A stretch of DNA of 64,000 nt, taken from assembly GCA_041617155.1 (NCBI GenBank), contig JBFJPL010000005.1, forward strand, positions 2,564 to 66,563, given 5' to 3'. Positions within the stretch are counted from its first letter, which is position 1. Each line of letters begins with the position of its first letter. This document shows positions 38,941-56,500 of the stretch, one piece after another. A model generated the notes under the pieces. It did not search any database. It was not told the origin of the DNA and saw nothing but the letters and a program-made list of their open reading frames with translations. This DNA is from Kiloniellales bacterium (GTDB lineage Bacteria; Pseudomonadota; Alphaproteobacteria; Kiloniellales; JAKSDN01). The position numbers and the translations under genes are program-made.

Positions 38941-39156
38941 GGGTTCCGGGTCGCTTAAGGATCGGCATAGGATCGTCGGCGAGAGGGACAAGGCCTCCCG
39001 GGGTTCGCCGATTAGCGCCTTTGTGGCCCCGAGGCAACCTTTTTCCGCTCGGGAATAGTCACCGTGACATGCCGATGTAGCCTTGACGGTCCGAGCCTTT
39101 CGCGGGATTTCTATAGCGCTAGTCGGCCTCGCGATCAGACCTGGGGAGCAACAGCC

Positions 39157-40359
39157 ATGGCAAGGGCCCGCCCGACCGCATCGGACGGAGGCGACGAGGC
39201 AAGTGCGGCAATCTGGCGGCAGGGATTCCGGCCTTTCTTCCTGGGCGCGGCCTTGTGGTCGGCGGCGGCACTGGCGCTTTGGATCCCGGCCCTGACCCAC
39301 GGTCTGGTCCTGCCCAGCGGTTTCGGCGCGGCGGCCTGGCACGCCCACGAAATGCTGTTCGGTTTCGCCGCCGCGGCGATCGCCGGCTTCCTCTTGACGG
39401 CGATCCCGAACTGGACCGGCCGCCTGCCGATCCAGGGCACCCGGCTCGCCTTTCTGTTCACCCTGTGGGCCGCTGGCCGCATCGCCGTCGCCACCTCGTC
39501 GCTGGTCGGCGAGTGGCTGGCCGCGACAGTGGACGTCGGCTTTCTCGCGACCCTCTGCGCCATGGTTCTGCGCGAGATCCTGGCCGGCCGGAACTGGCGC
39601 AATCTGCCGATGGCTGGCGTGCTGGCCGTGCTCGCCCTGGCCAATCTCACAACCCATCTGGAGCCGCTCGGCCTCGCGGACACCAGCGACCTGGGCCAGC
39701 GCCTGACGATTGCCACCGTCGCGTTCCTCATCACCTTGATCGGCGGCCGGATCGTGCCGAGCTTCACCCGCAATTGGCTGAACAAGCGCAGCGAAACCGC
39801 GTTGCCGAGGACTTTCGGCCGGCTCGACCGCGCGACCGTGGCGGTCACGGCCTTGACCGGCCTTGGCTGGACCCTGCTGCCCGAGTCGGCGTTGACCGGC
39901 GTCCTGGCGCTTGTGACCGCCGCCGCCCAAGGTCTACGCCTTTCCGGCTGGCGCGGCCACAAGACCGGCGCCGAGCCTTTGGTCTGGGTGCTCCATCTTG
40001 GCTATGCCTGGCTGCCGATCGGCTTCGCGCTACTAGGTGTCGCGATCCTGACCGATCTGCTGCTGCCAAGCGCCGCCTTCCACGCCCTGACGGCAGGGGC
40101 CATGGGAACCATGATCCTGGCGGTCATGACGCGCGCCACCTTGGGCCACACCGGCCGGGCGCTGACCGCCGGTCCGGCGACGCTCGCCATCTACGCCCTG
40201 GTCACGCTCGCGGCCCTGCTTCGCCTGCTCGCGCCGCTCTTCGGCGGCGCGGAACTGCCGGTCATGGCCGTGGCCGGCCTGTCGTGGATCGCCGCCTTCG
40301 GTCTTTTCGCCACGGCCTATGGTCCTCTCCTCATTGGTGCCGAGCACCGCAGCGATTAG
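39157..40359 (+). CDS. nnrS: NnrS family haem/copper membrane protein
   Basis: The start is trimmed to ATG 39157. It reads GFRPFFLGAALW...AWHAHEMLFGF...LTAIPNWTG, and 12 hydrophobic segments are visible. Confidence 0.85.
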   Translation: MARARPTASDGGDEASAAIWRQGFRPFFLGAALWSAAALALWIPALTHGLVLPSGFGAAAWHAHEMLFGFAAAAIAGFLLTAIPNWTGRLPIQGTRLAFLFTLWAAGRIAVATSSLVGEWLAATVDVGFLATLCAMVLREILAGRNWRNLPMAGVLAVLALANLTTHLEPLGLADTSDLGQRLTIATVAFLITLIGGRIVPSFTRNWLNKRSETALPRTFGRLDRATVAVTALTGLGWTLLPESALTGVLALVTAAAQGLRLSGWRGHKTGAEPLVWVLHLGYAWLPIGFALLGVAILTDLLLPSAAFHALTAGAMGTMILAVMTRATLGHTGRALTAGPATLAIYALVTLAALLRLLAPLFGGAELPVMAVAGLSWIAAFGLFATAYGPLLIGAEHRSD

Positions 40360-40564: not shown

Positions 40565-40948
40565 CTACTCGGTCAATACCTTGAGTATGTCGTAGCGGCT
40601 GACCTGCCCGACGAGCTTGCCGTCGCGGAGGACCGGGAAGCGACGGAAGTGGCTGTCGAGAAAATGCTGGGCCGCGCTCACCAGGTCCTGACCCGCGTCC
40701 AGGGTTGTCACGGGCGTGCTCATGAAATCGCGTACCGGTCCGCCCCAGTCGTCGTGATATCGTGTCGAAAAAACGATCTTCAGGCAGTCCTTCTTGGACA
40801 GCATGCCGACCAGGTCGCCGTCGGTGTCCACCACCGGTGCGCCGGAAATCCGTTTGTCGAGGAGAATCCGGATGGCCTCGTGAATGTTCATGTCCGGCGT
40901 GAAGGTAACCAGCCGAGTCGCCATGATGTCGGCGACGGTCCGAGTCAT
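40565..40948 (-). CDS. CBS-pair domain protein, last gene of the nqr-type operon
   Basis: 127 aa. The start ATG 40948 overlaps the nqrM stop (ATGA). Two CBS motifs are present (ISGAPVVD, RFPVLRDGKLVG). Confidence 0.75.
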   Translation of the reverse strand: MTRTVADIMATRLVTFTPDMNIHEAIRILLDKRISGAPVVDTDGDLVGMLSKKDCLKIVFSTRYHDDWGGPVRDFMSTPVTTLDAGQDLVSAAQHFLDSHFRRFPVLRDGKLVGQVSRYDILKVLTE

Positions 40949-41100
40949 CGCTCCTTCCCGGGCCGGCAGAGGGGACAGGCCTTGAGCACAGCGTCTCCGC
41001 CGCACGACCCCTTGAGCGGGCCGCGGCCGAGCAGGACCCCCGCGCCGAGTCCGAGGATCGCCAGCACGATCACCGCGAAGCTGAGCAAGAACAGCGTCAT
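40945..41100 (-). CDS. nqrM: (Na+)-NQR maturation protein NqrM-like, 51 aa (below ORF-track cutoff)
   Basis: Hand translation gives MTLFLLSFAVIVLAILGLGAGVLLGRGPLKGSCGGDAVLKACPLCRPGKER. It has one TM helix, then GSCGG and CxxC, which is the pattern I recall for NqrM/DUF539. ATGA overlaps occur at both ends. Confidence 0.65.
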   Translation of the reverse strand: MTLFLLSFAVIVLAILGLGAGVLLGRGPLKGSCGGDAVLKACPLCRPGKER

Positions 41101-42059
41101 GAAGCGCCTCCCACCGCGAATCCGTTGACGTCCACTTCCTCCAGTCCGCCCGGGCGGCGCATCAGGAACAGCGCGCTGGCGTCGCGAGCCTTGAGCAGCG
41201 GGCGGGCGGCTTCCGGCCCCAGCACCATGGCGGCCGTTGCCAGACCGTCCGCAATCAGCCCCGTCGCGGCCAACACGCTCACCGAGGCGACCCCATTGTT
41301 TACCGGCGTCCGGGTACGCGGGTCCAGAACATGACCATAGCGCCGACTACCAACGGCATAGCCCTGCGCGCCGTCGCCCGACGTCGCCAAGGCGCGCCTG
41401 TCTGCTTCGACGATTCGCTGAAGCATGGTCGATCCCGGCCGTTCGATACCGACACGCCAGGGCCGTCCCGATGGGTGGCGGCCCCGGGCCGCGACCTCGC
41501 CGCCCAGTTCGACCAGGAAATCGAGCCCGTCGAGCGCCTGCACGATCTCGTCCAGCGCGTGTCCCTTGGCGATGCCGCAAAGGTCGAGGCTCAACCCGGG
41601 GCACGCCGTTCTCAGCACATCACCGACGATGCTCAGATCGCGATACCGGCCGCTCGGGCGGGCAGGCGAAATGGCGGGCGGCCCGAAGCCGTAGCGCCTG
41701 CCCAGCGGCGCCGTGGTCGGGTCGAAGGCGCCGTCGCTGTCCCGGGCCAGCTCCAGCGCCGCGCGCGCAACGAGACTTGTCTCGCGCGACACAAAGGTGC
41801 AGCCGGCGGCGTTGAAGCGGGCCAATTCGGAGCCGGAGCGATAGGGCGACATGAGGGCATCAATGCGCGCCACGACCACTTCCAGCCGGGCCCGCGCCCG
41901 GGCCGCCTCGCGCGTGTCGGGCAGCACGAGCCGCCACGCCGAGCCGAAGGCGGGGCCCGTGTGGACGCGCACTTCGGCCGCGCGTGCCGCGGCGGGCAAG
42001 ACGTTCAGCAACGCCGCGCCGCCGGCTATTCGCAGAAGCTCCCTTCGCGTGATCGTCAT
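41097..42059 (-). CDS. apbE: FAD:protein FMN transferase (ApbE family), Tat signal
   Basis: 320 aa. It has an RRELLRIAGGAALL signal, GIAKG, and HVLDPRTRTP motifs. It abuts the nqrF stop. Confidence 0.85.
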   Translation of the reverse strand: MTITRRELLRIAGGAALLNVLPAAARAAEVRVHTGPAFGSAWRLVLPDTREAARARARLEVVVARIDALMSPYRSGSELARFNAAGCTFVSRETSLVARAALELARDSDGAFDPTTAPLGRRYGFGPPAISPARPSGRYRDLSIVGDVLRTACPGLSLDLCGIAKGHALDEIVQALDGLDFLVELGGEVAARGRHPSGRPWRVGIERPGSTMLQRIVEADRRALATSGDGAQGYAVGSRRYGHVLDPRTRTPVNNGVASVSVLAATGLIADGLATAAMVLGPEAARPLLKARDASALFLMRRPGGLEEVDVNGFAVGGAS

Positions 42060-43277
42060 TCAGCCTCCGAAATCGTCGTACAGGATATTCTCGCGCGGGA
42101 CGTCCAGCGTATCCAGCAGGGCGCGTGCCGCCTCGATCATGAGGGGCGGGCCGCACAGATAGTATTCGCACGCCGCCGGGTCGGGATGCGCCTTCAAATG
42201 GTTGCGGTAGACGACGTCATGGATGAACCCCGTCTCACCGTCCCACGAGTCGCCGGGCGCGGGGTCGGACAGCGCCACATGCCAGGAAAAATTCGCGTGT
42301 TCCCGCGCCAGCCGCTCCATATCGTCGGCGTAGTAGAGATCGATCAACGCGCGCGCGCCATACCAAAAGCTGATCCTGCGCGACGTCCTTTTGTATTCGA
42401 GCTGGTCGAACACATGCGCGCGCAGCGGCACCATGCCGACGCCGCCACCGATCAGGACGATCTCGCGGTCCGTCTCCATGACGAAGAAGTCGCCGAACGG
42501 TCCCGACACCGTGACCGCGTCGCCGACCTCGAGACCGAACAGGTAGGACGACACCACCCCGGGCGGCGCGTCCGGCCTGCTGGCGGGCGGCAGGGCGAGG
42601 CGGATGTTGAGCAGCAGCGCGTTGGTCTCCCCGGGGTGGTTGGCCAGCGAATACGCCCGGGCAACGGGGGCCTTGCACCGGGCCGTGAGTCTTCTAAGGC
42701 CCAAACGCGTCCAGGCATCTTCGTGCGCGGGGTCCACGGCGATCTCGGCGAACGGCAGGGTGAAGCGCGGCGCGGTGACCTCCACGTATGATCCGGCCCG
42801 GAAACTCCTGGCCTGCCCCTCGGGCAGGGCCAGCACGATTTCCTTGATCAGCGGCGCGAGGGATCGAGTCCGGCTGACGGTGCATGACCAGGTTTCCGCG
42901 ACCAGCAGGTCGGCGGCCACGGTGACCGCGAGGTCGTCGCGCACCACCACTTGGCAGGCGAGGCGGACGCCGTTCGCGATGTCGACTTCGCCTAGCGTGG
43001 CCCGCTCGATCGGCAGAACGTCCCCGCCACCGGTTACGGTCACCCGGCACAAACCACAGGTGCCCGCCCCGCCGCAGCTTGTGGGCAGATGCACGCCGCC
43101 ATGTTCCAGTGCCGCCAGCAGTTTTTGTCCGAGGTCGGCGTCCAGGACACGCTCGCCGTTCACGGTGATGTGCGCGAGGCCCCCGGGCACCAGCACGGCC
43201 CGGGCGACCAATACGACGAAGGCCAGCACCATGATCAGTCCCGTGAACACCGAACTGCCAAGAAGGATCTCCGTCAT
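42060..43277 (-). CDS. nqrF: NADH:quinone reductase (Nqr-type) subunit F
   Basis: The start is trimmed to ATG 43277. It has an N-terminal TM helix, the 2Fe-2S motif SCGGAGTCGLC...LACQ, the FAD motif RAYSLAN, and an NAD-binding GGGVGM region. Confidence 0.9.
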   Translation of the reverse strand: MTEILLGSSVFTGLIMVLAFVVLVARAVLVPGGLAHITVNGERVLDADLGQKLLAALEHGGVHLPTSCGGAGTCGLCRVTVTGGGDVLPIERATLGEVDIANGVRLACQVVVRDDLAVTVAADLLVAETWSCTVSRTRSLAPLIKEIVLALPEGQARSFRAGSYVEVTAPRFTLPFAEIAVDPAHEDAWTRLGLRRLTARCKAPVARAYSLANHPGETNALLLNIRLALPPASRPDAPPGVVSSYLFGLEVGDAVTVSGPFGDFFVMETDREIVLIGGGVGMVPLRAHVFDQLEYKRTSRRISFWYGARALIDLYYADDMERLAREHANFSWHVALSDPAPGDSWDGETGFIHDVVYRNHLKAHPDPAACEYYLCGPPLMIEAARALLDTLDVPRENILYDDFGG

Positions 43278-43284
43278 CGTCGCC

Positions 43285-43887
43285 TCATCCGAACTCCAGC
43301 CCGCCGAAAACGGCAAACCCCATCGACATGAAACCGGTCAGGATGAACGCGAGCCCGAGGCCGCGCAGCCCGTCCGGCACGAGAGTCTCGTCGATCCGCT
43401 CGCGCAGGGCGGCGAGCGCCCATACGGCCAGCGCCCACCCCAGCCCGGAACCCAAGCCGTAGATCACGCTCTCGGAGAACTCGTAGCGGCGCTCGACCAT
43501 GAACAGGCTGGCGCCGAGGATGGCGCAGTTGACGGTGATCAGCGGCAGATAGATTCCCAGCGAGCGGTAGAGCCGGGGGAAGTGGCGATCGAGGACCATC
43601 TCGAGGATCTGCACTGTGGCCGCGATGACGCCGATCGAGGCGATCAGCACCAGGAAGCTCAGATCGACCTCGCCCAGCCCCAGCCACGTCAGCGCGCCGG
43701 GCCCGAGCAGCCAGGTGAAAAGGAGGTTGTTGACAGGGACGGTGATCGTTTCGACCACGATCATGGCGAGGCCCAGCCCGAACGCGGTCTCCAGATGACG
43801 GGAGACCGCGAGGAACGTGCACATTCCAAGGAAGTAGGCGAGCGCCAAATTGTCGGTGAATACCGATCGGACCAGTAGTTCGGTCAT
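43285..43887 (-). CDS. nqrE: Nqr-type subunit E
   Basis: 200 aa, starting [29 protein letters not shown]. The conserved Cys residues in GMCTFL and VNCAIL are present. ATGA overlap with nqrD. Confidence 0.9.
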
Positions 43888-44534
43888 CGCGGCACCTCGC
43901 CGCCCTGTTCTCCCGGGGCCGGCTCGGCCTGTTCCGGCCGAATGGTACGTATCGCCCACACCAGCAGTCCGAGCAGGAAGAACGCGCTCGGCGGCAGCGC
44001 CATCAATCCGAGCGGCGTGAACCAGCCGCCATCCGCGGCGGCCGGCAAAATTGTGACGCCCAACAGCGTTCCCGCACCGAAAAGCTCGCGCACGATGCCG
44101 ACCGTAACCAGGATCAGGGCATAGCCGAGGCCGTTGCCGAGACCGTCGAGCAGGCTCGCGCCGGGGGGATTCTTCATGGCGAAACCTTCCGCGCGGGCGA
44201 GCACGATGCAGTTAGTGACGATGAGGCCGACAAACACGCTGAGACGCTTGCTCATCGCGAACATGTAGGCTTGCAGCATTTGGTCCACGACGATGACCAG
44301 CGAGGCAATGATCGTGATCTGCACGATGAGCCGGATCGAGCGGGGAACATGGTTGCGAATCAGGCTGATCAGGCCGTTGGAGAGGGTGAGCACGAAGATC
44401 AGCGCGGCGCTCATCACCAGGGCGGTGGCCAGCGACGTGGTCACCGCAAGCGCAGAGCAGATCCCGAGCACCTGAAGCGTCACCGGGTTGGCGACGAGAA
44501 TGGGGTCGACCAGGGTGCGGGTGCGATCGCTCAT
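43884..44534 (-). CDS. nqrD: Nqr-type subunit D
   Basis: This is the last 216 aa of track ORF 43884..45245, reading [12 protein letters not shown] and [17 protein letters not shown] overlap with nqrC. Confidence 0.9.
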
Positions 44535-45271
44535 CGCCCCGCCTCCGACTTGAGGCGATCGAGATACGGGCCGTAGCCGTCGGGGCCGAGCCAGAAACGC
44601 AGTAGGTTGGTGACGCCGGTGCCGGTGCGGGTCGCACCGGAGATGCCGTCGACCTCGTGCACGCCGGTGCCGGCGCCCTTGACCACCCCGATGCGGATCA
44701 CGCCGTCGGCATCGGCCACCTGCCTGCCCGGCCAAAGGGCCTGCCACGCATCTTCCTCGATGCGCGCGCCCATGCCGGGGGTCTCGTCCTGTTCGTAAAA
44801 GGTCAGCGCGGCGACGGTGTTCAAATCGGCCTTCAGGGCAAGATACCCCTTGAGCGTCGATTGATAGCCGGTTCCGCGCACCGGCAGGACCACCAACCTC
44901 AACGCGCCCTCCTCGCGCAGTTCGAAGACGGTGGCCACGTTCTCGCGGCTGCCCAGCCCCGCACGGTCGCGGTCGACCGGCAGCTCGGTGCTCGTGCCCG
45001 GGTCGCGGTCCACATCGGCGCCGGAGGCGAGATCCACCAGACGCATCTCCGGAACGCCCGCGCCCAGGATTTCCAACATCCCCAGCATGCGCGCCACCTT
45101 GTCCGCCTGCCGGTTGGCGTCCTGCAGCGGCCTCAGCGTCACCGCCGTGGCCGAAACCACCAGCGAGCAAACCAGGGCAACCAGGAGCGCGACGCCGACG
45201 GTCTTCGCCGTGCTGTCGTTGGGCAGGGCAAGGAAGCCCCGCCACCAGACGAGCGGATTGGCACTAGCCAT
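44531..45271 (-). CDS. nqrC: Nqr-type subunit C (FMN-binding)
   Basis: The start is trimmed to ATG 45271. It has one N-terminal TM helix and the FMN phosphoester site ISGATRTG. Confidence 0.85.
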
Positions 45272-46049
45272 GGCGGGGCCTCCAGGCGAGCGCCCGGTCC
45301 AGAAGCGGCGCGAACAGCCCGCCCAGCAGAGCCGCGAACACCACGCCGTCGGGCTGGTCGGGATTGGCGAGGCGGATCGCGACAATCAGCGCGCCGACCA
45401 GCATGCCCAGCAGCCAACGGGCACCACTGCCGGCGATCGCGCCCTCGGGCGCCGCAGCGAGGAACAGGATACCGGCTGAGAAGGCACCGAGGCCGGGATG
45501 CTGCCACCACACGGGGTCGCCCATCAACAAACCCGCCGCCGCAGCGCCGGCCACGGCGCCCGCGGCGACCTGCCAGGCGAGCGAGCCTCTCAACATCAGG
45601 ATAACGGCCCCGGGCAGGCAGGACAGGGCGAACACGTAGTCGGGCGACAGCGCGAGGATGCCTTGCGCCTCGAACCCGCCCTCGGGGAAGGAAAAGATGG
45701 CGAATGCCAGGCCGATCAGCGCCGGCGGCAGTATCGCCCTGCCGCCGAAGATCTCGCGCCCGAAGACGGCGCCGAAGCTGAGCGCGAGCACGGCCCCGCC
45801 CCAGCCGACCGGCCCTGGCAGCATCACGACGAACAACACGGCGAAGGCAGGCAGCCCGGAGCCGAGCGGGCGTCCCGTCCGGCGCGCGAACAGGGCGGCC
45901 CAGGCATAGGTGATGCCGAGCGCCAGAGCGAGCAGAAGCAGCCGCTGCATCGCCACCTCCGTGCCGTCGCCAAACAGCCGCACGAGGAAGGGCAGCGTCA
46001 GCGCCAGCAGCCTGAGGCGGTCATCACTGTCCGGATCGGTCATGGTCAT
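45264..46049 (-). CDS. nqrB: Truncated NqrB/RnfD-family membrane subunit (261 aa, no SGAT FMN site)
   Basis: The start is at ATG 46049 (MTMTDPD). Blocks FGAVFGREIFGG and IRLANPDQPDGVVFAALLGGLFAPLLD align by eye with NqrB. There is an 8-nt overlap with nqrC. Confidence 0.75.
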   Translation of the reverse strand: MTMTDPDSDDRLRLLALTLPFLVRLFGDGTEVAMQRLLLLALALGITYAWAALFARRTGRPLGSGLPAFAVLFVVMLPGPVGWGGAVLALSFGAVFGREIFGGRAILPPALIGLAFAIFSFPEGGFEAQGILALSPDYVFALSCLPGAVILMLRGSLAWQVAAGAVAGAAAAGLLMGDPVWWQHPGLGAFSAGILFLAAAPEGAIAGSGARWLLGMLVGALIVAIRLANPDQPDGVVFAALLGGLFAPLLDRALAWRPRHG

Positions 46050-46423
46050 CGCGTGCCAACTTAAGGTCGGGATGAAACCCTGACAACGGTTGTGCCTCAA
46101 TCGCCTGGGCTTGTCTCGGGGTCGCGGGCAGTCTGCGGTCGCCTTGACGAACAACGCCTGGTCATTCGACGGCTCAGTGGACAGCTTCCTGGGGCAGCCC
46201 ATTCCAACGACAACCTGATCGGTGAGTGGCACGTCGTCCGCGCCGATTGCCACGGCCATTTGCGAAGCTTCGAGCAATGATCGTTGAACAGTACCGCCGG
46301 GCGGAGGCTTTGGCTGTGCCTTCGCCATCGGGAACCAGCCGATCAATGAATCGGTTCGGGGAAACAATGGCTCAAAGTCGGACATCGGCCTCGGAGAGTC
46401 CGAAGCTGCGGTTGAACTGACGT

Positions 46424-46459
46424 GGGGCAAACATGGCAAAAATGGCAAAAATGGCAAAA
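46424..46459. repeat. Tandem 9-mer atggcaaaa, three perfect copies plus one degenerate
   Basis: ggggcaaac (46424-46432) is followed by atggcaaaa at 46433, 46442 and 46451. It lies in the divergent nqrB/cytochrome intergenic region. Confidence 0.9.
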
Positions 46460-46558
46460 GCAGCCATGATTGGACGTCAGCGTATTCTGCTTTCGACTGC
46501 GGGCTCATGGCGCACTATGATAATTCCATCGACGAACTAGAATGCCGCACCATTCGTT

Positions 46559-47833
46559 ATGGGAATGCTCATGGACACTTTTTCGTGTGGCGCGCGTGCC
46601 TTCCAAATCCGGAACGACGTGCCGGAGCTGACGGTGAGCAAGCTGTATGACCTCTTCGCCATTGCCAACTCATGGAGACATCTCGGCGGGCTCGTTTCGA
46701 TTGCATTTGTTGTTTTGCTGTTGGCCGGCTTAAGTTCGCCGCTTGCCGCGGCGGGTCTCAATGGCGACAAGGCCTACACCGAAGGGCCACAAGTGTGCGG
46801 CCGTTGCCACACGGAAGCTTTGGAGCAGTGGCTCGCTCACGGCCACAGCCGGAAGCTCGCCATCGGCGGGCCGGCGCTCAAGGCGCTCGACGGCAAATTT
46901 GGCCTTTTCGGGAATGCGCGAGACGGCGGATTCCGCCTCCCGGACCACGACAAAGATGCCTATAACTGGGACAACGTGGCGCTGATCATCGGCGCAAGCA
47001 AGCGATGGAAGACGCGATTCCTGGCCAAAGACGGCTACATCATCACCAAGGGCGGGAACAACCAATATAACTGGGCGGACGGTTCTTGGGTCGACTACCA
47101 CAAGGACGAACAGAAAAAGTATAGCTGTGGCAGCTGCCATACCACCGGCTATCGGGAGGGCGGCAGCGCTTTCGGCGCAAAGCGAATTCCTGGCACGACC
47201 GCCGGTCCCATGCCCGGCATCGCGGGGGACTGGGCCCAGTTCAACATCACCTGCGAGGCCTGCCACGGACCGGGCGCGGCTCACGCCGCGAAGCCGAGCA
47301 AAGTCAACATAATAGTGGACAATTCGGCGCAGTCATGCGGCACGTGCCACATCCGCGGATCGGACCCGAACACCATCATCGCGGAGGGCGGCTTCATCCG
47401 CCATCACGAACAGTATCCCGAGTTCGCCAACAGCCCTCACAAGGACCTTGCCTGCACGACCTGCCACCAACCCCACGACAGCCGCTCGCAGGGCATGAAG
47501 GTGAGCGCCGCGAACACCACGGTCTGCGACACCTGCCATGGCGCGCAGAAGGAGCTATTCGCCGGCAGTCCGATGCAAAAGGCCGGTGTGACCTGCGTGG
47601 ACTGCCACATGGCAAAGGTCACGAAGTCCGCGGTTGCAGTGGGGCCCTATGAGGGCGACGTGCGCACCCACGTCATGCGGATCAATCCCGCCGCCGATTA
47701 CGTGATGTTTACACCAGACGGCAAAGCGGCCAAGAATGCTATCAGCTTGGAATTTGCCTGTTTTCGGTGCCATGCCGCGGCCAGCAAGGCGGAGTTCGCC
47801 AAGATCAAGGACTTCCATGCCATCGGCAAATGA
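46559..47833 (+). CDS. Octahaem c-type cytochrome, periplasmic or membrane-anchored
   Basis: Eight CxxCH motifs are present: CGRCH, CGSCH, CEACH, CGTCH, CTTCH, CDTCH, CVDCH, CFRCH. The N-terminus has a hydrophobic segment, LVSIAFVVLLLAGLSSPLAAAG. The start is uncertain (ATG 46559 or GTG 46634). Confidence 0.85.
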   Translation: MGMLMDTFSCGARAFQIRNDVPELTVSKLYDLFAIANSWRHLGGLVSIAFVVLLLAGLSSPLAAAGLNGDKAYTEGPQVCGRCHTEALEQWLAHGHSRKLAIGGPALKALDGKFGLFGNARDGGFRLPDHDKDAYNWDNVALIIGASKRWKTRFLAKDGYIITKGGNNQYNWADGSWVDYHKDEQKKYSCGSCHTTGYREGGSAFGAKRIPGTTAGPMPGIAGDWAQFNITCEACHGPGAAHAAKPSKVNIIVDNSAQSCGTCHIRGSDPNTIIAEGGFIRHHEQYPEFANSPHKDLACTTCHQPHDSRSQGMKVSAANTTVCDTCHGAQKELFAGSPMQKAGVTCVDCHMAKVTKSAVAVGPYEGDVRTHVMRINPAADYVMFTPDGKAAKNAISLEFACFRCHAAASKAEFAKIKDFHAIGK

Positions 47834-48393
47834 CCCGCGGCGGCAATGCATGATGACGCGGCGGTCCTTGGGGCCCCAGCTGCCGGGCAGGCTGCAGTCC
47901 GCCGTGGCCCGGTCGTCGATCAGCGCCTGGTTCATCTCGGTCGCGAAGGAGCCCGGGCCGATGCCGTTGACCTGGAGGCCCATGGGCGCCCAGTCGGCGC
48001 ACATGCCCTTGGTCAGCATCTTGACCGCACCCTTGGCCGCGGTGTAGGGCGCGATGGTCGGCCGGCCGACCTCGCTCATCAGCGAGCAGATGTTGATGAT
48101 CTTGCCGGCCTTGCGCGCGATCATTCGCCGCGCCACCAGGAACACGCCGGTGAGATAGGTCTCGATCACCGCCCGCCAGTCGGCCTCGGGAAACTCGGCC
48201 AAGGGTTTGCGCACCTGGATCCCGGCGTGGTTGACGAGAATGTCGCTCGGCCCCTGCCCCTCCTCGATCTCGACCACGCCGGCCTCGACCGCGGCCCCGT
48301 CGGTGACGTCGAAGGCGACCCGCTCAGCCGCCACCTCGGCCTCGCACAAATCGGCCACGGCCCGCCCCGGCTTGGCCTCGTCACGCCCGTTCA
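47834..48393 (-). pseudogene. Short-chain dehydrogenase/reductase remnant, truncated at both ends
   Basis: The middle of track ORF 47555..48511 reads ILVNHAGI...INICSLMSEVGRPTIAPYTAAKGAVKMLTK...VNGIGPG (SDR NAG and YxxxK motifs). There is no N-terminal GxxxGxG Rossmann segment and no normal C-terminus. Confidence 0.6.
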
Positions 48394-48914
48394 GCACCAC
48401 CGCCGCCACGCCGACCATGGCACCCGCGGCGACCTGCCATGGCAGCAAGCCGCGCAACATCAGGACCGCCGCCCCGGGCAGGCAGGACATCGCGAACAGG
48501 GGATCGGGCAACAGCGCGAGAATACCGCGCGCCTCGAACTCGACCTCGGGGAAGGGGAAGATGGCGGCCGATCAGCGCCGGGGGCAGTATGGCCCTGCCG
48601 ACGAAGATCTCGCGCCCGAAGACGGCACCGAAGCTCAGCGCGAGAACGGCGCCGCTCCAGGCAACCGGCCCAGGCAGCAACGAGACGAAGGTTATGGCAA
48701 AGGCAGGTAGCCCGGGGCCCGGCGGACGCCCAGCCCGACGCGCGAACAGGCCGGCCCAGGCATAGGCGATGCCGAGCGCCAGGCCGAGCAGCAGCAACCG
48801 CTGAACCGCCGCTTCCGTGCTTTCGCCATAAAGCCGCACGGCCAGAGGCGGCGCCAGCGCCAGCACCCTGAGGACGTCATCACGGTCGGGATCGGCCATG
48901 GTCGTCGCGCGCAT
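48394..48914 (-). pseudogene. Frameshifted partial copy of the short nqrB
   Basis: MRATTMADPDRDDVLRVLALAPPLAVRLYGE...FGAVFGREIFVGRAILPPALIG parallels 45264..46049. An 8-nt gap near 48566 relative to the intact copy breaks the frame. Homology resumes in another frame (PDPLFAMSCLPGAAVLMLRG) and ends at the SDR remnant. Confidence 0.7.
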
Positions 48915-49049
48915 CCCGCGTTAGCGTACGGCCGGGATAACGCACTGACAACGGTCGTGCGTCGGTCGGCTGGGCCGGGGCCGCAGGCCGTCCAAGGTCG
49001 CCTTGGCGGGCTATGTCCGGTCGTTGGACGGCCCCGTGCACAGCTTCCT

Positions 49050-49265
49050 GCCGCGGGCCCTGCTTCGCTTGCCCGCGCCGCTCTTCGGCGGCGCGGAACT
49101 GCCGGTCATGGCCATGGCCGGCCTGTCGTGGATCGCCGCCTTCGGTCTTTTCGCCACGGCCTATGGCCCGTTCCTGACCGGCGCCGCCCGTCGGGTCGAC
49201 TAACGCCGGTGGTCACATAAGACGCCTGAGCCGCGGGCTCCCTCGTTGCAGTTCTGGCGGGTGAT
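49050..49265 (+). pseudogene. Orphan copy of the nnrS 3-prime end plus its downstream sequence
   Basis: Track ORF 49003..49203 ends LLRLPAPLFGGAELPVMAMAGLSWIAAFGLFATAYGPFLTGAARRVD, compared with the nnrS C-terminus LLRLLAPLFGGAELPVMAVAGLSWIAAFGLFATAYGPLLIGAEHRSD. DNA similarity continues past the stop (gagccgcgg...). Confidence 0.65.
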
Positions 49266-50386: not shown

Positions 50387-52027
<1,641 letters not shown>

Positions 52028-52031
<4 letters not shown>

Positions 52032-53230
52032 GACGCGACCCCGGCGGTTGCGCGTGCCGCGCCGCCTTCCGGCCGCGGCAGGAAGCGGTCGATGCCGAAC
52101 GGTCGGGCCGCCTCCAAGGTCTCGCCGGTCAGGACGTAATGGCTGACCAGTTTGGCGGTCGCGGGGGCCAAGAGGATGCCGTTGCGGTGGTGCCCCGTCG
52201 CCAGCACCAGGCCCTCGACCCCGGCGCTCCGCGGCGCCGGCCCCAGGATCGGCGCGTCGTCGCGGCTGGTTGGCCGGAAACCGACCCAGAACTCCTCGAT
52301 CGGCAGCTCCTCGATGCCGGGCACGGCCCGCCAGGCCGCCTCCAGCACCGCATAGACGCCGCCGGCCGTCAGCCGGTCGTCGAAGCCCTTTTCCTCGACC
52401 GTGCCGCCGACGATCAGGCGGCCGTCGAGGCGCGGCACCATGTAGATCTTCGGCGCCCACAGTACGTGCCGCAGCAGGGGCTCGGCCGGGTCCATCCTGA
52501 GCGCCAGCATCTGGCCCTTGACCGGGCGCACCGGCGGTCGGGCGGCTTCGGGCAGCCCGTCGATCTCGCGCGACCAGGCGCCGGCGGCAAGCACCACCAC
52601 ATCGGCCGGGCGAAAGGCGTCGCCAATGCGCAAACCCCGCACCCGGCCGCCCTCGGCCTCGACGGCAGCGACCTCGGTGTCCTCGTGTAGCCGGCCACCG
52701 GCCGCCAGAAACGCGCGCTTCAAGGCCTCGCCCAGCTTGCGGTTGTCGACCTGGTGGTCGTGCGGCGAGAAGACCGCCGCGGCGGTGCCCGGCCGCAGGA
52801 ACGGTTCGCGCCGCCGCGCCTCGGCGCCGCTCAGCCATTCGAGCTCGATGCCCAGACCGGTCTGAAACTCGTAGCCGAAGCGCAATTGCCCTACATCGTC
52901 GCGGGTCAGCGCGGCAACCAGGGTGCCATCGGCGCGGTAGTCGACCGCCATGCCGGCGGCCGCTTCGAGCTCCCGCGTGAAGTCGGGCCAGAGCGCTTGG
53001 CTCCACTGGTTCAGCGCGAGCAGACGCTGCTCGCCGGGCTCGGTCTCGACGCCACCCGCCAGCATACCGGCGGCCGCCCAGGTTGCGCCGTGCCCCGCCT
53101 TGCCCCGGTCGTAGACCTCGACCGGGCAGCCGGCCGCCGCCAGGCGCCAGCCGATCCCCAGGCCGCACACGCCCGCGCCGACAATGGCGACGCGCGGCAG
53201 CTTGGCAGTCGATGATGAAAGTGGACCCAT
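52028..53230 (-). CDS. thiO: Glycine oxidase ThiO
   Basis: 400 aa with an FAD Rossmann motif VAIVGAGVCGLG. It is the first gene after the TPP riboswitch. Confidence 0.85.
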
Positions 53231-53237
53231 AACAGCA

Positions 53238-53322
53238 GGGCTCCCTTCGCTGGCATAATCCAGATCAGGTTCGATGGGTTTGCTCTCAGCCGGCCTTCTG
53301 GCCCGGCACCCCAGCCATAACG
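53238..53322 (-). promoter_or_regulatory. TPP (THI-box) riboswitch
   Basis: The minus strand reads ggggtgccgggccagaaggccggctgagagcaaacccatcgaacctgatctggattatgccagcgaagggag. This has the canonical GGGGUGC...CUGAGA...ACCUGAUCUGGAUAAUGCCAGCG core, directly upstream of thiO. Confidence 0.85.
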
Positions 53323-53597
53323 AACGTCATCTATCATATAATGACGACCCGGCCCAAGGCCAGCACTGTGGCGCCCTGGCAAACCACCGGCTCGACGGCG
53401 AATGTAATGTGAAGCTACGGCGGGTAGTATCTCCGTCTGAAATCGAGAGACGGCAAGCGACCTGTTGCAGCTTCTCATGATCGCTGGCACGAATGTCGGC
53501 ACTCGGATAGCAAACCAGTCGTCCGACTGCGGCCACCGGTCAGGCTGGTGATAGTCAAGAACGGACGCACGAATAGTCAAGGAGCTGCATGACAAAA

Positions 53598-56500
53598 TCA
53601 TGCCAGCTCGTCGAGCAGCGCCTTGGCTTCCTTGAGGTCCGGGGTGCCGAAGCCCTCGGTGAACCAGCCGTAGACTGGCGCAAGAAGATCGTGAGCGTCA
53701 TGGCGTTTGCCCTGCTCGGCCCAGTGCCGTGCAAGGCTGGTCGCGGCGCGCAGTTCCCAGGATTTGGCGTCTTGCGCCCGCGCGACTTGGATCGCTCTCT
53801 GCAAACTTACCGCTGCGGAATCGGCATCGCCCGATTGCAGTAGGGCTTGTGCGCGGAGCTGATGAATCCTCGATTCCCACCACCGCTCGCCGGTCTGCTC
53901 CCCGATATCTAGAGCTTGGGCCAGCGTTTCGAGCGCTTCAGCACGCCGCTGCGAGTGCAAGAGACTCTCGGCGAAAAGACATGTGAAGGGTTGAAGCCAC
54001 GTACGCGCTCCAATCCGGTTCCAGTTCTCAAGCCCGGTACGAATTCGCTCAAGCCCATCCTCCGCCTGCCCCGTCAGCGCAAGCGCCCAGCCGCTAATGA
54101 TCAGGGCGCTCGCCTCGGTCTGCACCAATTTTTGCTCCTCGCTTAGCTGCAGCAGTTTCTCGGCTGTCGACAGCGCCGCAGCCTTGTCGCCGCGCGCCGC
54201 ATGGGCCGCGCCAAGGAACCAAAGCGCGAAGGCAAGCGTGGGCGCGTGACCGAGGCGCCGTGCGATTTGCAGGGCGTCCGTGTCATGTCGGTGCGCCCGG
54301 TCAGGGAAACCGAGTGCCCAGACGACGCCGGCGCCGAGAGCGTGGGCGCAGACCGCCGGGTCATGCCCTAAGTACACAAACGCGTGGTGCTTGTGCTGTT
54401 CATAGTCATAAAGAGCCAAACCCTTCTCGATGTGTTCGTTCGACCTCACGAACGCACCCCGGTACATCGGAATTGGCCACGCGGCATGGTGGGACTGTAA
54501 CAGCAAGTCGCGGTTAGAAGTGGTCTTAGCCACCTGAAACAGCTCTTGGGTAACCTGGTCGGCCAGATCAAACCGGCCACGAGTTGCATGAAACAGCCAC
54601 ATTCCCACGAGCGGCGGCACTAAATCGGCGGACCTTTCGAGCAGACCTGCCAGCGTTCTCGCCCGTTCGTATGCTGTCCCTACCTCTGTCGCCGCCCATC
54701 CTTTGACCAGCATCAGGGCAGGCCCAAGGTGAGTTAGCACCCTAAGCTCGTTCGTGTTGCGTTCGCGGCCTTCGGGCTGAATGTGAATCAGGTCGAGTGC
54801 CTTCTGAAAGTGCTGAATGGCCTCGATATTGGCGGCCCGTCGCACCGCCTCCTGACCGGCGAGTTGCCGATACTTGATCGCCGGCTCTATCAAGCGGGCT
54901 TCGGTGTAGTGATGGGCGAGCAGTTCGGGCGCCGCCCCTGCCTCGAAAGAAATCGCTTCGAGCGCCTCTGCTACTCGGGCATGCAATTGCTGGCGTTTGG
55001 ATTTAAGGAGCGAATGGTAGGCGGTGTCCTGGACCAGAGCGTGCTTGAAGATATACGAGCTTCCGGAACGCTTGCGGCGGCGGTAGACCAACTCCGACTC
55101 GACCAGCCGGTCGAGCGCAGCGTCTAGCTCCGGCTTGGCGCGGTCGGCCACGGCAGCCAGTAGCTCGTGCGAGAACTCGCGCCCGATGACCGCGCCAATC
55201 TGGGCTGCCTCCTTGACCGGACCGAGGCGATCGAGCCGCGCCATGAGAGAGTCGTGCAGGGTTGAAGGGATCGCCAACGGCGGCAACGGACCGGCCAGTT
55301 CGTAATGGTCGCCGGCATCGGTGAGTAGGCCCAATTCGAGTGTCGTCTTGGTCAGCTCCTCGACGAACAGCGGCACACCGTCGGTCTTGGCCAGGATCTG
55401 ATCGAGCACTTCCGCGGGCAGCGGCTTGCCGCTCGTGAGGCGCTGCACCACGGCCGCGCCCTGCCGCCAGCTCAGCCGGTTGAGCGAAAGCTGAGTGACA
55501 CAGGCATGGCCAATCCAAGGTGGTTGAAAGTCTGGTCGGAAGGTCAGGATCAGCAGCACCGGCAGGCGCACTAGGCACTCGACAACCAATGCCAAAAACT
55601 CCTGTGTGCTAGGGTCAATCCAGTGCACGTCCTCGAATATCATCAGGACCGGTTCGTGCGCCGCCAATCCCTCGAGCTGCTCGACCAGCGCTTCGAGCGT
55701 ACGTTGTTTCTGCCGCTGCGGCGTCATCTTGAGCGCCGGGAAGCGTTCAGCGGTCGAGATACCCAGGGCCTGGGCAAGCAAAAGCGTGGCTTCGCCCACC
55801 TCTGCGGTACCCTGGCCGAGCACAGCTTCTAGAAGCTCGAACTTGACCTCGACGGTGTCGTCATGGCCAAAGCCTGCGGCTCTCTGGAGCTGGTCGAGTA
55901 TTGGGTAAAGTGCCGTGTTGACGTGAAACGGCGAACAGAAGTAGCGCAGGTTGACGTACGAATCATCGGCGAGCTGCGCTCTCAAGCTCTCGACGATGCG
56001 CGATTTGCCGATTCCGGGCTCGCCAGAGAGCAACACGACCTGTCCCTCTCCGTCGCGCGCCTGGCGCCAGCGCGAGAGCAGGAAACGCAACTCTTCGTCG
56101 CGGCCGATCAGAGGTGTCAACTCTGCCCCGTGGCGCGCCTCGAAGCGGCCCTCCATACGACTCTCGCCGGTAACCCGCCAGGCTTGGATCGGTTCAGCAA
56201 ACCCCTTGAGTTCGCGTGCACCTAGATCGGCCAGATCGAACAACTCACCGAGTAGATGACGCGTGCCCGGCCCAATCACCACACTGTTGGGTTCGGCCAA
56301 GGTCTGAAGGCGCGCAGCCAAGCTCGGCGTCTCGCCGACCACCGCCTCTTCTTGTGCCCCACCTTCGCCGACTATGTCGCCGACGATCACTTGACCGGTC
56401 GCGATACCAACCCGCGCCGCCAAATGCTTGCCCGTTGGCGTCATCAACTTTGCGACCGCCTCGGCAAGCTCCAGTCCCGCTCGCACCGCGCGTTCGGCAT

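What the first reader, a model, noticed from the sequence alone, without database searches (positions are those of the whole stretch)
46559..47833. Octahaem cytochrome c divergently adjacent to the NqrA-less operon, with nnrS on the other flank
Seen in sequence: the protein has eight CxxCH motifs in about 360 mature residues and an N-terminal hydrophobic signal or anchor. The gene starts about 510 bp from the nqrB start on the opposite strand, so the two share a control region. nnrS flanks the other end of the operon. Established knowledge: the NqrC FMN sits on the periplasmic side, and NnrS proteins are linked to NO and nitrosative stress. Inference (speculative): with the NqrB flavin missing, NqrC-FMN could pass electrons to this periplasmic multihaem protein. 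That would give an NADH-linked transmembrane electron conduit to a periplasmic reductase, possibly for N-oxides or another soluble or extracellular acceptor. I could not assign the family (Hao/ONR-like versus c554-like versus other) by eye.
Basis: partly seen in the sequence, partly recalled or inferred. Interest (0 to 1): 0.65.

Follow-up and report, generated by a model that had tools for sequence, protein, structure and literature searches.

The report
Octahaem cytochrome beside NqrA-less Nqr operon
The gene encodes a real, exported eight-haem cytochrome of a widespread unnamed family whose relatives in other bacteria sit inside NqrA-less Nqr operons or next to a lone NqrC flavoprotein, so an NADH-to-periplasm electron route is plausible, but in this genome the two genes were brought together by a local rearrangement.

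Summary
ORF 46559-47833(+) has eight CxxCH motifs, one N-terminal hydrophobic segment and about 360 mature residues. It lies 509 bp divergently from a short nqrB. No nqrA is in the window, and nnrS lies beyond the far end of the operon.

The cytochrome belongs to a large unnamed family of about 390 aa in which all eight motifs are invariant. It is a distant relative of OcwA and MccA in sequence and fold. It is not Hao, ONR, NrfA or MtrA.

The proposed NqrC-to-cytochrome link is partly supported.
- In one clade of short-nqrB operons, a homologous octahaem gene sits directly upstream on the same strand in 4 of 4 informative loci.
- Two further contigs place it at the end of the operon.
- A Marinobacter genome pairs it with a stand-alone NqrC homologue.
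- Other genomes place it beside canonical nqrA-F or beside rnf.

Three results weaken the link for this window.
- The closest relatives of this operon, and of this cytochrome, are not linked to each other.
- The window's cytochrome is only 34-37% identical to the Nqr-linked members compared.
- The gene sits in a rearrangement scar made of an SDR fragment, a diverged nqrB 5' copy and an nnrS 3' fragment.

The nnrS/N-oxide idea finds no support.

The parts
46559..47833 (+). Octahaem c-type cytochrome gene (424 codons; alternative starts at 46571 and 46634). Monocistronic: nothing real lies downstream on this strand.
   Evidence: Eight CxxCH motifs, all invariant in homologues. 489 homologues found. 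188 representative clusters at E<=1e-30. Nearest solved structures are OcwA and MccA.
46685..46756 (+). Signal peptide or signal-anchor region (residues about 43-66, ...LVSIAFVVLLLAGLSSPLAAAG).
   Evidence: It is the only hydrophobic window in the protein. The AAG|L junction is conserved in close homologues. There is no lipobox cysteine and no twin-arginine motif (read from the sequence).
46050..46558 (.). Divergent intergenic region of 509 bp. Positions 46050-46205 are shared with the decayed nqrB copy; 46206-46558 are unique. It holds a 9-bp tandem repeat (GGCAAAAAT x3.8) at 46426-46459 and a sigma-70-like site at 46493-46521(+).
   Evidence: No Rfam family and no FNR-like box.
45264..46049 (-). 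Short nqrB (261 aa). The FMN-threonine loop is deleted, and the roughly 125 N-terminal residues of the V. cholerae chain have no significant match.
44531..45271 (-). nqrC (246 aa): N-terminal membrane anchor and an FMN_bind domain with SGAT at residue 211. This is the proposed electron exit point.
43884..44534 (-). nqrD, with Cys26 and Cys109 retained.
43285..43887 (-). nqrE, with Cys24 and Cys122 retained.
42060..43277 (-). nqrF (2Fe-2S, FAD and NADH domains).
   Evidence: TIGR01941 scores 455 bits against a cut-off of 295. Pfam hits to Fer2, FAD_binding_6 and NAD_binding_1.
41097..42059 (-). apbE (flavin transferase).
   Evidence: Pfam ApbE 7e-61.
40945..41100 (-). nqrM-like gene of 51 aa: one transmembrane helix, then GSCGG...CPLC.
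   Evidence: Translation. A 51-aa gene is called at this position in L081, L106, L107 and L110, and a 64-aa gene in L126. The NqrM identity rests on my own knowledge of the motif and was not profile-tested.
40565..40948 (-). CBS-pair protein, the last conserved gene of the operon.
   Evidence: Pfam CBS. Found at the end of short-nqrB operons in other loci.
39064..40359 (+). nnrS, convergent with the operon end. Not a conserved neighbour.
   Evidence: Pfam NnrS 3.8e-114. Absent next to all other short-nqrB operons examined.
47908..48412 (-). Fragment of a short-chain dehydrogenase gene (pseudogene piece). It matches only positions 25-193 of the 195-position adh_short profile, so the N-terminal part is missing.
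   Evidence: Pfam adh_short positions 25-193 of 195, inside a chimeric ORF.
48397..49062 (-). Decayed copy of the 5' two-thirds of nqrB plus about 150 bp of its upstream region. It is 82-83% identical to 45533-46009 and 73-74% identical to 46047-46200.
49056..49236 (+). Copy of the 3' end of nnrS (82% overall, with a core of about 115 bp that is nearly identical), joined directly to the nqrB-upstream copy.

Best explanation
The gene encodes a Sec-exported periplasmic octahaem c-type cytochrome (soluble or N-terminally anchored). It belongs to a widespread unnamed family that is distantly related to OcwA and MccA, with NrfA-superfamily haem packing and a c554-like first four haems. Its role is electron transfer. 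In this genome its most likely partner is the covalently flavinylated periplasmic domain of NqrC in the neighbouring NqrA-less complex.

Proposed path: NADH -> FAD and 2Fe-2S of NqrF -> intramembrane Fe-S of NqrD/E -> FMN of NqrC -> eight haems -> an unidentified periplasmic or extracellular acceptor. The same wiring run backwards, feeding periplasmic electrons to NAD+, cannot be excluded.

Shown: the cytochrome is real and conserved. The operon lacks NqrA and the NqrB flavin site but keeps every cofactor site up to NqrC. Homologous cytochromes are encoded inside or beside such operons, and beside a lone NqrC, in other lineages.

Inferred: direct NqrC-to-cytochrome electron transfer, the direction of flow, the acceptor, and that the coupling applies to this particular subfamily and genome.
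For: (1) A homologous octahaem gene lies directly upstream of short nqrB, on the same strand, in L100 and L102 (complete), L094 (cut at the contig end) and L092 (C-terminal 61 residues). These are all 4 informative loci of one NqrB/C/D clade.
(2) L121 and L126 share one gene order on one strand: 11-haem cytochrome, rhodanese, short nqrB, nqrC, D, E, F, CBS, Na+/H+ exchanger, octahaem homologue.
(3) In Marinobacter (L123) the octahaem gene overlaps the start of a stand-alone NqrC homologue, 41% identical to the window's NqrC and carrying SGAT.
(4) In L011 the cytochrome lies divergent from canonical nqrABCDEF-CBS, with apbE on its other side.
(5) In L049 a 3-haem cytochrome precedes rnfC and rnfD (Pfam) and rnfG/E/A-like genes (tblastn), and the octahaem gene is divergent from this cluster. 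In L028 an nqrB/C/D/E-like cluster plus apbE converges on the cytochrome.
(6) Cofactor sites in the window's operon are intact up to NqrC. The Thr236 loop of NqrB is deleted, so the canonical continuation is broken.
(7) The octahaem unit occurs as 2-5 tandem copies in single proteins and with T9SS sorting domains, as expected of an electron-wire module. Eight extra histidines are conserved, enough for eight bis-His haems.
(8) Every contig recovered from this strain shows the same arrangement.
Against: The operon's closest relatives (clade I: L084, L096, L109, L110) and two other clades (L091/L106-L108; L093, L095, L097) have no cytochrome within 2.4-10 kb upstream. The cytochrome's closest orthologues have no nqr gene nearby: L001, L004 and L007 with 10 kb upstream, and L127. 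The window's protein sits on a different deep branch from the operon-linked ones and is 34-37% identical to those compared by BLASTP. The genes are divergent, not co-transcribed. Only about 155 bp of the spacer belongs to the ancestral nqrB upstream region, and no shared regulatory motif was found. The gene lies between a functional nqrB and a decayed nqrB copy, next to an SDR fragment, so the adjacency is a by-product of rearrangement. Across 80 family loci there is no universal partner. Other members sit with a NapC/NirT-type cytochrome, with molybdopterin-enzyme-like and NrfD-like ORFs (judged from their sequence), or alone.
Confidence: 0.45

Rival explanations
1. The neighbourhood is accidental. 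The cytochrome is an independent periplasmic electron carrier, fed for example from the quinol pool through a NapC/CymA-type or bc1-type route encoded elsewhere. A rearrangement dropped it beside the operon. The NqrA-less complex has some other acceptor.
For: Close orthologues of the cytochrome stand alone in unrelated contexts. Nine other informative short-nqrB loci lack any adjacent cytochrome. The locus is a scar holding an SDR fragment, an nqrB' fragment and an nnrS' fragment. The genes are divergent with a mostly unique spacer. In Zooshikella the family pairs with a NapC/NirT-type tetrahaem cytochrome instead.
Against: The same cytochrome family has become linked to Nqr/Rnf-type genes in several separate gene arrangements and lineages, including within operons and with a lone NqrC. 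A second chance juxtaposition in this genome is therefore less likely than average. The arrangement is fixed in all sampled contigs of the strain.
Confidence: 0.38
2. The cytochrome is a catalytic reductase or oxidase for a small N- or S-oxyanion (nitrite, hydroxylamine, NO, sulfite or tetrathionate). It would use an open or lysine-ligated haem 2, and it would be functionally tied to NnrS and nitrosative stress.
For: The nearest structures are OcwA, which reduces nitrite and hydroxylamine in vitro and has open haems 2 and 5 (PMC6703420), and the sulfite reductase MccA. Haems 1-4 align with OcwA's c554-like module, whose haem 2 is the active site. Lys151 is invariant between motifs 1 and 2. nnrS is within 7 kb. 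In L121 and L126 a rhodanese is co-encoded.
Against: There is no CxxCK motif, and no CxxxCH or CxxxxCH motif among the relatives scanned for them. All eight motifs are canonical. Eight conserved non-motif histidines suffice for all-bis-His ligation. The module is concatenated up to 4-5 times and carries surface-sorting domains, which is typical of wires rather than enzymes. The model shows no long C-terminal three-helix bundle. nnrS is not a conserved neighbour. There is no FNR/NnrR box.
Confidence: 0.1

Closest known systems
MmcA-Rnf of Methanosarcina acetivorans (PMC11024163)
   Same: A periplasm-side multihaem c-type cytochrome is encoded as the first gene of an Rnf/Nqr-type operon and carries electrons away from the complex. 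L092, L094, L100 and L102 have exactly this gene order with a short-nqrB operon.
   Different: MmcA has seven haems, two on non-canonical motifs, and is related to OTR. Its complex is a complete Rnf with a ferredoxin input. Here there are eight canonical CxxCH motifs and an OcwA/MccA-like fold, the input is NqrF/NADH, and the complex lacks NqrA and the NqrB flavin. In the window the gene is divergent, not in the operon. Homology to MmcA was not tested directly.
OcwA, nonahaem surface cytochrome of Thermincola potens (PDB 6I5B; PMC6703420)
   Same: It is the best match in sequence (profile E 7e-24) and in structure (Foldseek E 1.6e-11, TM 0.47). Haem motifs 1-4 align with its c554-like module.
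   Different: OcwA has nine haems, a C-terminal three-helix bundle, about 20% identity to this protein, and a Gram-positive cell-surface location. The family here has eight haems, and its model shows no long C-terminal helices.
MccA octahaem sulfite reductase (PDB 4RKM)
   Same: It has eight haems. Foldseek E 1e-7, TM 0.48.
   Different: MccA is about 660 residues in the solved chains and 16-17% identical. From my own knowledge, MccA has a CX15CH haem and a copper site. Here all eight motifs are CxxCH.
Two-subunit 'Nqr/Rnf-like' complexes (Meheust et al. 2021; mSystems 2024, PMC11334425)
   Same: They combine an NqrB-like subunit that has lost the flavinylated threonine with an NqrC-like FMN subunit. 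They are proposed to be a one-way NAD(P)H-to-outside conduit.
   Different: Those complexes fuse NqrB to an NAD-binding domain and lack NqrD, NqrE and NqrF. They are mainly found in Actinobacteria and CPR, and no multihaem partner is described for them. Here there is a five-subunit NqrB(short)CDEF plus ApbE, NqrM and CBS in Proteobacteria.
Canonical Na+-NQR (NqrABCDEF, Vibrio cholerae)
   Same: NqrC, D, E and F, ApbE and an NqrM-like gene are orthologous, and their cofactor motifs are intact.
   Different: There is no NqrA. The Thr236 FMN loop of NqrB is deleted, and the roughly 125 N-terminal residues of the V. cholerae chain have no significant match.

Membership tests
NrfA / octahaem nitrite reductase (ONR) | Active-site haem on a CxxCK motif with a lysine proximal ligand | tested here: not met
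   No CxxCK in any of the six Nqr/Rnf-context relatives counted. All eight motif histidines are invariant across 34 family members, including the window's protein. Pfam Cytochrom_C552 scores 18.5 bits, below its cut-off of 24.1.
Hydroxylamine oxidoreductase (HAO) | Sequence or profile match to HAO-type octahaem proteins; P460 haem with a tyrosine cross-link | tested here: not met
   No HAO chain appears among the PDB sequence hits at E<=1 or among the Foldseek hits. The cross-link itself cannot be tested with these tools.
Cytochrome c554 | Tetrahaem protein of about 210 aa matching PF13435 | tested here: inconclusive
   PF13435 scores 31.4 bits (cut-off 20.8), but no single stretch passes on its own. 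PDB 1BVB matches with profile E 2.7e-4, and Foldseek gives E 2.2, which is not significant. Only the first four haems resemble the c554 module, judged through OcwA. The protein has eight haems, so it is not a c554.
OcwA family | Nine haems and a C-terminal three-helix bundle | tested here: not met
   Eight CxxCH motifs. The model has only short helices after residue 350. Homology is real but distant.
MccA sulfite reductase | Eighth haem on a CX15CH motif and a Cu(I) site (from my own knowledge) | tested here: not met
   All eight motifs are CxxCH and are conserved as such. The protein is 424 aa against about 660 residues in the MccA chains. The Cu site was not tested.
MtrA/DmsE decahaem and NrfH/NapC families | Score above the NCBIfam cut-off | tested here: not met
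   TIGR03508 scores 44 bits against a cut-off of 192. NrfH TIGR03153 scores 28 bits against 134.
MmcA-type cytochrome of Rnf/Nqr operons (functional class) | Multihaem cytochrome gene co-transcribed as part of the rnf or nqr operon | tested here: not met
   In the window the gene is divergent, 509 bp away. The feature is met by homologues in L092, L094, L100 and L102 (same strand, 114 bp gap in L100) and in L121 and L126.
MmcA-type cytochrome of Rnf/Nqr operons (functional class) | Sequence homology to MmcA (OTR-related, five CxxCH plus CxxxCH plus CxxxxCH) | not tested
   No MmcA sequence was available to the tools. The motif pattern differs: eight canonical motifs, and no CxxxCH or CxxxxCH in the relatives scanned.
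Canonical Na+-NQR | Six subunits including NqrA | tested here: not met
   tblastn with NqrA of L011 gives a best E of 0.45 in the window and no hit in any short-nqrB locus.
Canonical Na+-NQR | FMN covalently bound to NqrB (Thr236 loop) | tested here: not met
   The profile alignment to V. cholerae NqrB (7XK3 chain B and related entries) places DGYSGATAL inside a deletion. No [ST]GA[ST] motif occurs in any of the 17 short NqrB sequences.
Canonical Na+-NQR | FMN site on NqrC, the four Fe-S cysteines of NqrD/E, and a full NqrF | tested here: met
   SGAT at NqrC residue 211. Cys26 and Cys109 in NqrD, Cys24 and Cys122 in NqrE. nqrF TIGR01941 scores 455 bits against a cut-off of 295.

The most novel reading that the evidence does not exclude
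NqrA-less, NqrB-flavin-less NqrBCDEF complexes are a distinct respiratory module. In this module the electron path stops at the periplasmic FMN of NqrC and is handed to an octahaem cytochrome of this family. That would give Proteobacteria a quinone-independent and possibly Na+-coupled route between cytoplasmic NADH and periplasmic or extracellular redox partners. It would be a bacterial Nqr counterpart of the archaeal MmcA-Rnf system, and the window would be one lineage that assembled the pair independently.
Probability: 0.35. Interest if true: 0.8.

Novelty: new variant of a known kind. Interest (0 to 1): 0.6.

Why it matters
Nqr is known as an NADH:quinone pump whose electrons go out to the periplasmic face and come back. 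A conserved variant has lost NqrA and the NqrB flavin and recurs with multihaem cytochromes. Such a variant would turn the machine into a one-way link between NADH and the periplasm, or the reverse. That would add a new entry point for extracellular electron transfer, or for electron uptake, in Alpha- and Gammaproteobacteria. It would give a function to a large unnamed cytochrome family. It would also offer a natural experiment on what NqrA and the NqrB flavin do. I found no paper describing this combination.

Tried and rejected
- FNR/NnrR-type box (TTGAT-N4-ATCAA, up to 2 mismatches): none in 46050-46558, and the window total (15) is barely above chance (8.8).
- Rfam scan of 38-57 kb: only a TPP riboswitch at 53225-53323, nothing near the cytochrome.
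- blastn of the intergenic region and of the region after the gene against all fetched loci: no conservation outside the same strain.
- Horizontal-transfer signal: the gene has GC 0.61 and GC3 0.77, against GC3 0.82-0.88 for the operon. This is within the spread of other genes in the window, so it is not informative.
- Clustering of neighbours in the 80 genome loci: no universal partner. The only sizeable recurrent cluster (15 loci) looks like sensor histidine kinases, judged from the representative sequence and not profile-tested.
- Assigning distal haem ligands, or an open haem 2, from the AlphaFold model: not possible, because model coordinates are not exposed. Only conservation counts could be made.
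- Checking whether the SDR fragment marks the cytochrome's original locus: orthologue loci show no adjacent SDR. The tblastn 'SDR' hits there are the antisense of the cytochrome itself.
- Literature searches for NqrA-less or partial Nqr with multihaem cytochromes: nothing specific.
Full report
**What is in the sequence.** ORF 46559-47833(+) translates to 424 residues with CxxCH at residues 80, 190, 232, 260, 299, 323, 346 and 401. It has a single hydrophobic stretch at residues about 43-67, ending in PLAAAG|LNG. No other ORF in the 64 kb window has more than one such motif. The start codon is uncertain. The public gene call uses 46571, and a GTG at 46634 follows a GGAG. On the opposite strand lies an operon:
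- short nqrB (45264-46049)
- nqrC (44531-45271)
- nqrD, nqrE and nqrF
- apbE
- a 51-aa nqrM-like gene (40945-41100)
- a CBS-pair gene

nnrS (39064-40359, +) converges on the operon's end. The gap between the two divergent start codons is 509 bp. No NqrA-like sequence exists in the window.

**The premise about the complex.** The short NqrB is not a pseudogene. It is a conserved family of 259-264 aa, and the few source names given point to Alphaproteobacteria/Rhodospirillales, with one from Gemmatimonadota. A profile alignment to Vibrio cholerae NqrB (7XK3 chain B and related entries) covers residues 126-404. It places the loop DGYSGATAL, which carries the flavinylated Thr236, inside a deletion. 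NqrC keeps SGAT at residue 211. NqrD and NqrE keep their paired cysteines. NqrF scores as a true NqrF. The cofactor chain is therefore intact up to the periplasmic FMN of NqrC and broken after it.

**What the cytochrome is.**
- Curated models: Pfam gives only generic multihaem hits, and NCBIfam gives nothing above its cut-offs.
- Family size: 489 homologues were found, mostly about 390 aa and unnamed. An exhaustive search gives 188 representative clusters at E<=1e-30.
- Conservation: all eight motifs are invariant. Eight further histidines (H96, H242, H282, H283, H294, H306, H371, H420), Met351 and Lys151 are conserved.
- Nearest solved structures: the nonahaem OcwA (profile E 7e-24; Foldseek E 1.6e-11, TM 0.47), then the Carboxydothermus undecahaem cytochrome (6QVM) and MccA. 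Motifs 1-4 align with haems 1-4 of OcwA, which superpose on c554.
- What it is not: there is no CxxCK motif, no non-canonical motif among the relatives scanned, and no C-terminal helix bundle. It is not NrfA/ONR, HAO, MccA, OcwA proper or MtrA.
- Distribution: the family occurs in many bacterial phyla and in Methanoperedens and Archaeoglobus.
- Architecture: the octahaem unit is found in 2-5 tandem copies within single proteins and fused to T9SS sorting domains. This points to an electron-transfer module. A catalytic haem 2 cannot be excluded.

**Co-occurrence, seen from the operon.** Short-nqrB loci were fetched from metagenomes and assemblies. They share the core nqrB(short)CDEF and CBS, usually with apbE and the small nqrM-like gene, and their flanks are unrelated to one another. 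nnrS is next to none of them. Neighbour-joining trees of NqrB, NqrC and NqrD give four clades.
- Clade I holds the window. The other informative loci (L084, L096, L109, L110) have no cytochrome upstream.
- Two further clades also have none: L091/L106-L108, and L093, L095 and L097.
- In the fourth clade, every locus with any upstream sequence has a homologous octahaem gene directly upstream on the same strand, in the position nqrA would occupy. These are L100 and L102 (complete), L094 (truncated) and L092 (last 61 codons).

**Co-occurrence, seen from the cytochrome.** Of 80 genome loci, four carry Nqr/Rnf-type genes within 10 kb.
- L011: canonical nqrABCDEF-CBS divergent from the cytochrome, with apbE on the other side.
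- L049: a 3-haem cytochrome followed by an rnf gene cluster, divergent from the octahaem gene.
- L028: an nqrB/C/D/E-like cluster plus apbE, convergent with the cytochrome.
- L069: a weaker case.

Six members of the L100-like subclade were then chosen only for having long contigs.
- Two (L121, L126) have this order on one strand: 11-haem cytochrome, rhodanese, nqrB(short)CDEF, CBS, Na+/H+ exchanger, octahaem.
- One (Marinobacter, L123) has the octahaem gene overlapping the start of a stand-alone NqrC homologue. That homologue is 41% identical to the window's NqrC and carries SGAT.
- One (Zooshikella, L124) pairs it with a NapC/NirT-type tetrahaem cytochrome.
- Two stand alone.

The link between this family and NqrC/RnfG-type flavoproteins is therefore recurrent and has arisen in several gene arrangements.

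**Why the window itself is a weaker case.**
- The window's protein sits on a different deep branch (group A) from the operon-linked members. It is 34-37% identical to those compared.
- Its closest orthologues (53-75% identity; Kiloniellales, Rhodospirillales and other MAGs) are single genes in unrelated neighbourhoods. No nqr gene lies within 10 kb where that much flank exists.
- The gene lies in a rearrangement scar. It is followed by a fragment of a short-chain dehydrogenase gene (47908-48412). Next comes an 82-83% identical copy of the 5' two-thirds of nqrB with about 150 bp of its upstream region (48397-49062). That copy is joined directly to a copy of the last 180 bp of nnrS (49056-49236).
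- Homology between the two nqrB-upstream copies stops about 155 bp from the start codon. The remaining 350 bp next to the cytochrome is unique. The 'shared control region' is thus a composite.
- I found no FNR/NnrR box, no Rfam element and no other shared motif in it. It holds only a 9-bp tandem repeat and one weak sigma-70-like site.
- The arrangement is nevertheless fixed in every contig recovered from this strain.

**Mechanism and confidence.** The best-supported reading is a periplasmic octahaem electron-transfer protein that exchanges electrons with FMN-NqrC of the NqrA-less complex. This parallels MmcA, the first gene of the Methanosarcina rnf operon. It also parallels the one-way 'Nqr/Rnf-like' conduits proposed by Meheust and colleagues.
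- I put 0.45 on this coupling operating in this genome.
- I put more on it operating in the clades where the genes share an operon.
- Chance adjacency is nearly as likely, at 0.38.
- A catalytic N- or S-oxyanion reductase tied to nnrS is unlikely, at about 0.1.

The direction of electron flow, the terminal partner, and whether Na+ translocation is retained are all unknown. The Na+/H+ exchanger in the L121 and L126 operons hints at Na+ translocation.

**Novelty.** I found no description of NqrA-less nqrBCDEF operons, of their link to multihaem cytochromes, or of this cytochrome family. The principle has precedents, so I class it as a new variant of a known kind.

Noticed in passing
window 47908-49236: Rearrangement scar. 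It consists of an SDR gene fragment, a diverged (82-83%) copy of the 5' two-thirds of nqrB with its upstream 150 bp, and a copy of the nnrS 3' end. The nqrB-upstream copy (equivalent to about 46200) is joined directly to the nnrS copy (equivalent to about 40212). That junction is what a tandem duplication or a circular intermediate of the nnrS-to-nqrB segment would leave.
   Followed up: partly
window 47846-48871 (+): The 341-aa 'hypothetical protein' called in the public MAG records is almost certainly spurious. It is antisense to the SDR fragment and the nqrB relic, is rich in Arg, Pro, Gly and Ala, and has no family hit.
   Followed up: partly
window 45264-46259 (-): The public gene call for nqrB (331 aa) appears over-extended by 70 codons. 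All homologues are 259-264 aa and start at the position of 46049.
   Followed up: yes
window 46426-46459: A 9-bp tandem repeat, GGCAAAAAT x3.8, lies about 100 bp upstream of the cytochrome start. Its function is unknown, and it is not found in other loci.
   Followed up: partly
window 40945-41100 (-): A small 51-aa gene between apbE and the CBS gene encodes one transmembrane helix followed by GSCGG...CPLC. It looks like NqrM, the Fe-S maturation factor of Nqr. A 51-aa gene is called at this position in L081, L106, L107 and L110, and a 64-aa gene in L126.
   Followed up: partly
window 53225-53323 (-): TPP riboswitch (Rfam RF00059, 70 bits) upstream of a thiamine-biosynthesis gene cluster (ThiS, ThiG and TMP-TENI domains) at 50387-53168.
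   Followed up: no
window 53598-56948 (-): A 1116-aa protein combining SAM, adenylate/guanylate cyclase, AAA ATPase (STAND-like) and TPR domains.
   Followed up: no
L121 331-9131 and L126 328-9131: Conserved operon: 11-haem cytochrome, rhodanese (the L121 copy has an N-terminal hydrophobic, signal-like segment), short nqrB, nqrC, D, E, F, CBS, Na+/H+ exchanger, octahaem cytochrome. This suggests a Na+-linked periplasmic redox system, possibly sulfur-related.
   Followed up: partly
L123 8001-10832 (Marinobacter sp.): The octahaem cytochrome gene overlaps the start of a stand-alone NqrC homologue (286 aa, with SGAT), which is followed by a ZIP metal permease. This is a minimal cytochrome-flavoprotein pair in a named genus (Marinobacter).
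   Followed up: partly
P0360 and other proteins; P0282, P0291 and others: The octahaem unit occurs as 2-5 tandem modules in one polypeptide (for example 1398 aa with 4 matched stretches). It is also fused to T9SS C-terminal sorting domains in Calditrichota and Caldisericaceae, which implies cell-surface forms.
   Followed up: no
L100 249-764 (-): A 171-aa dihaem cytochrome c is encoded divergently upstream of the octahaem-nqrBCDE operon.
   Followed up: no
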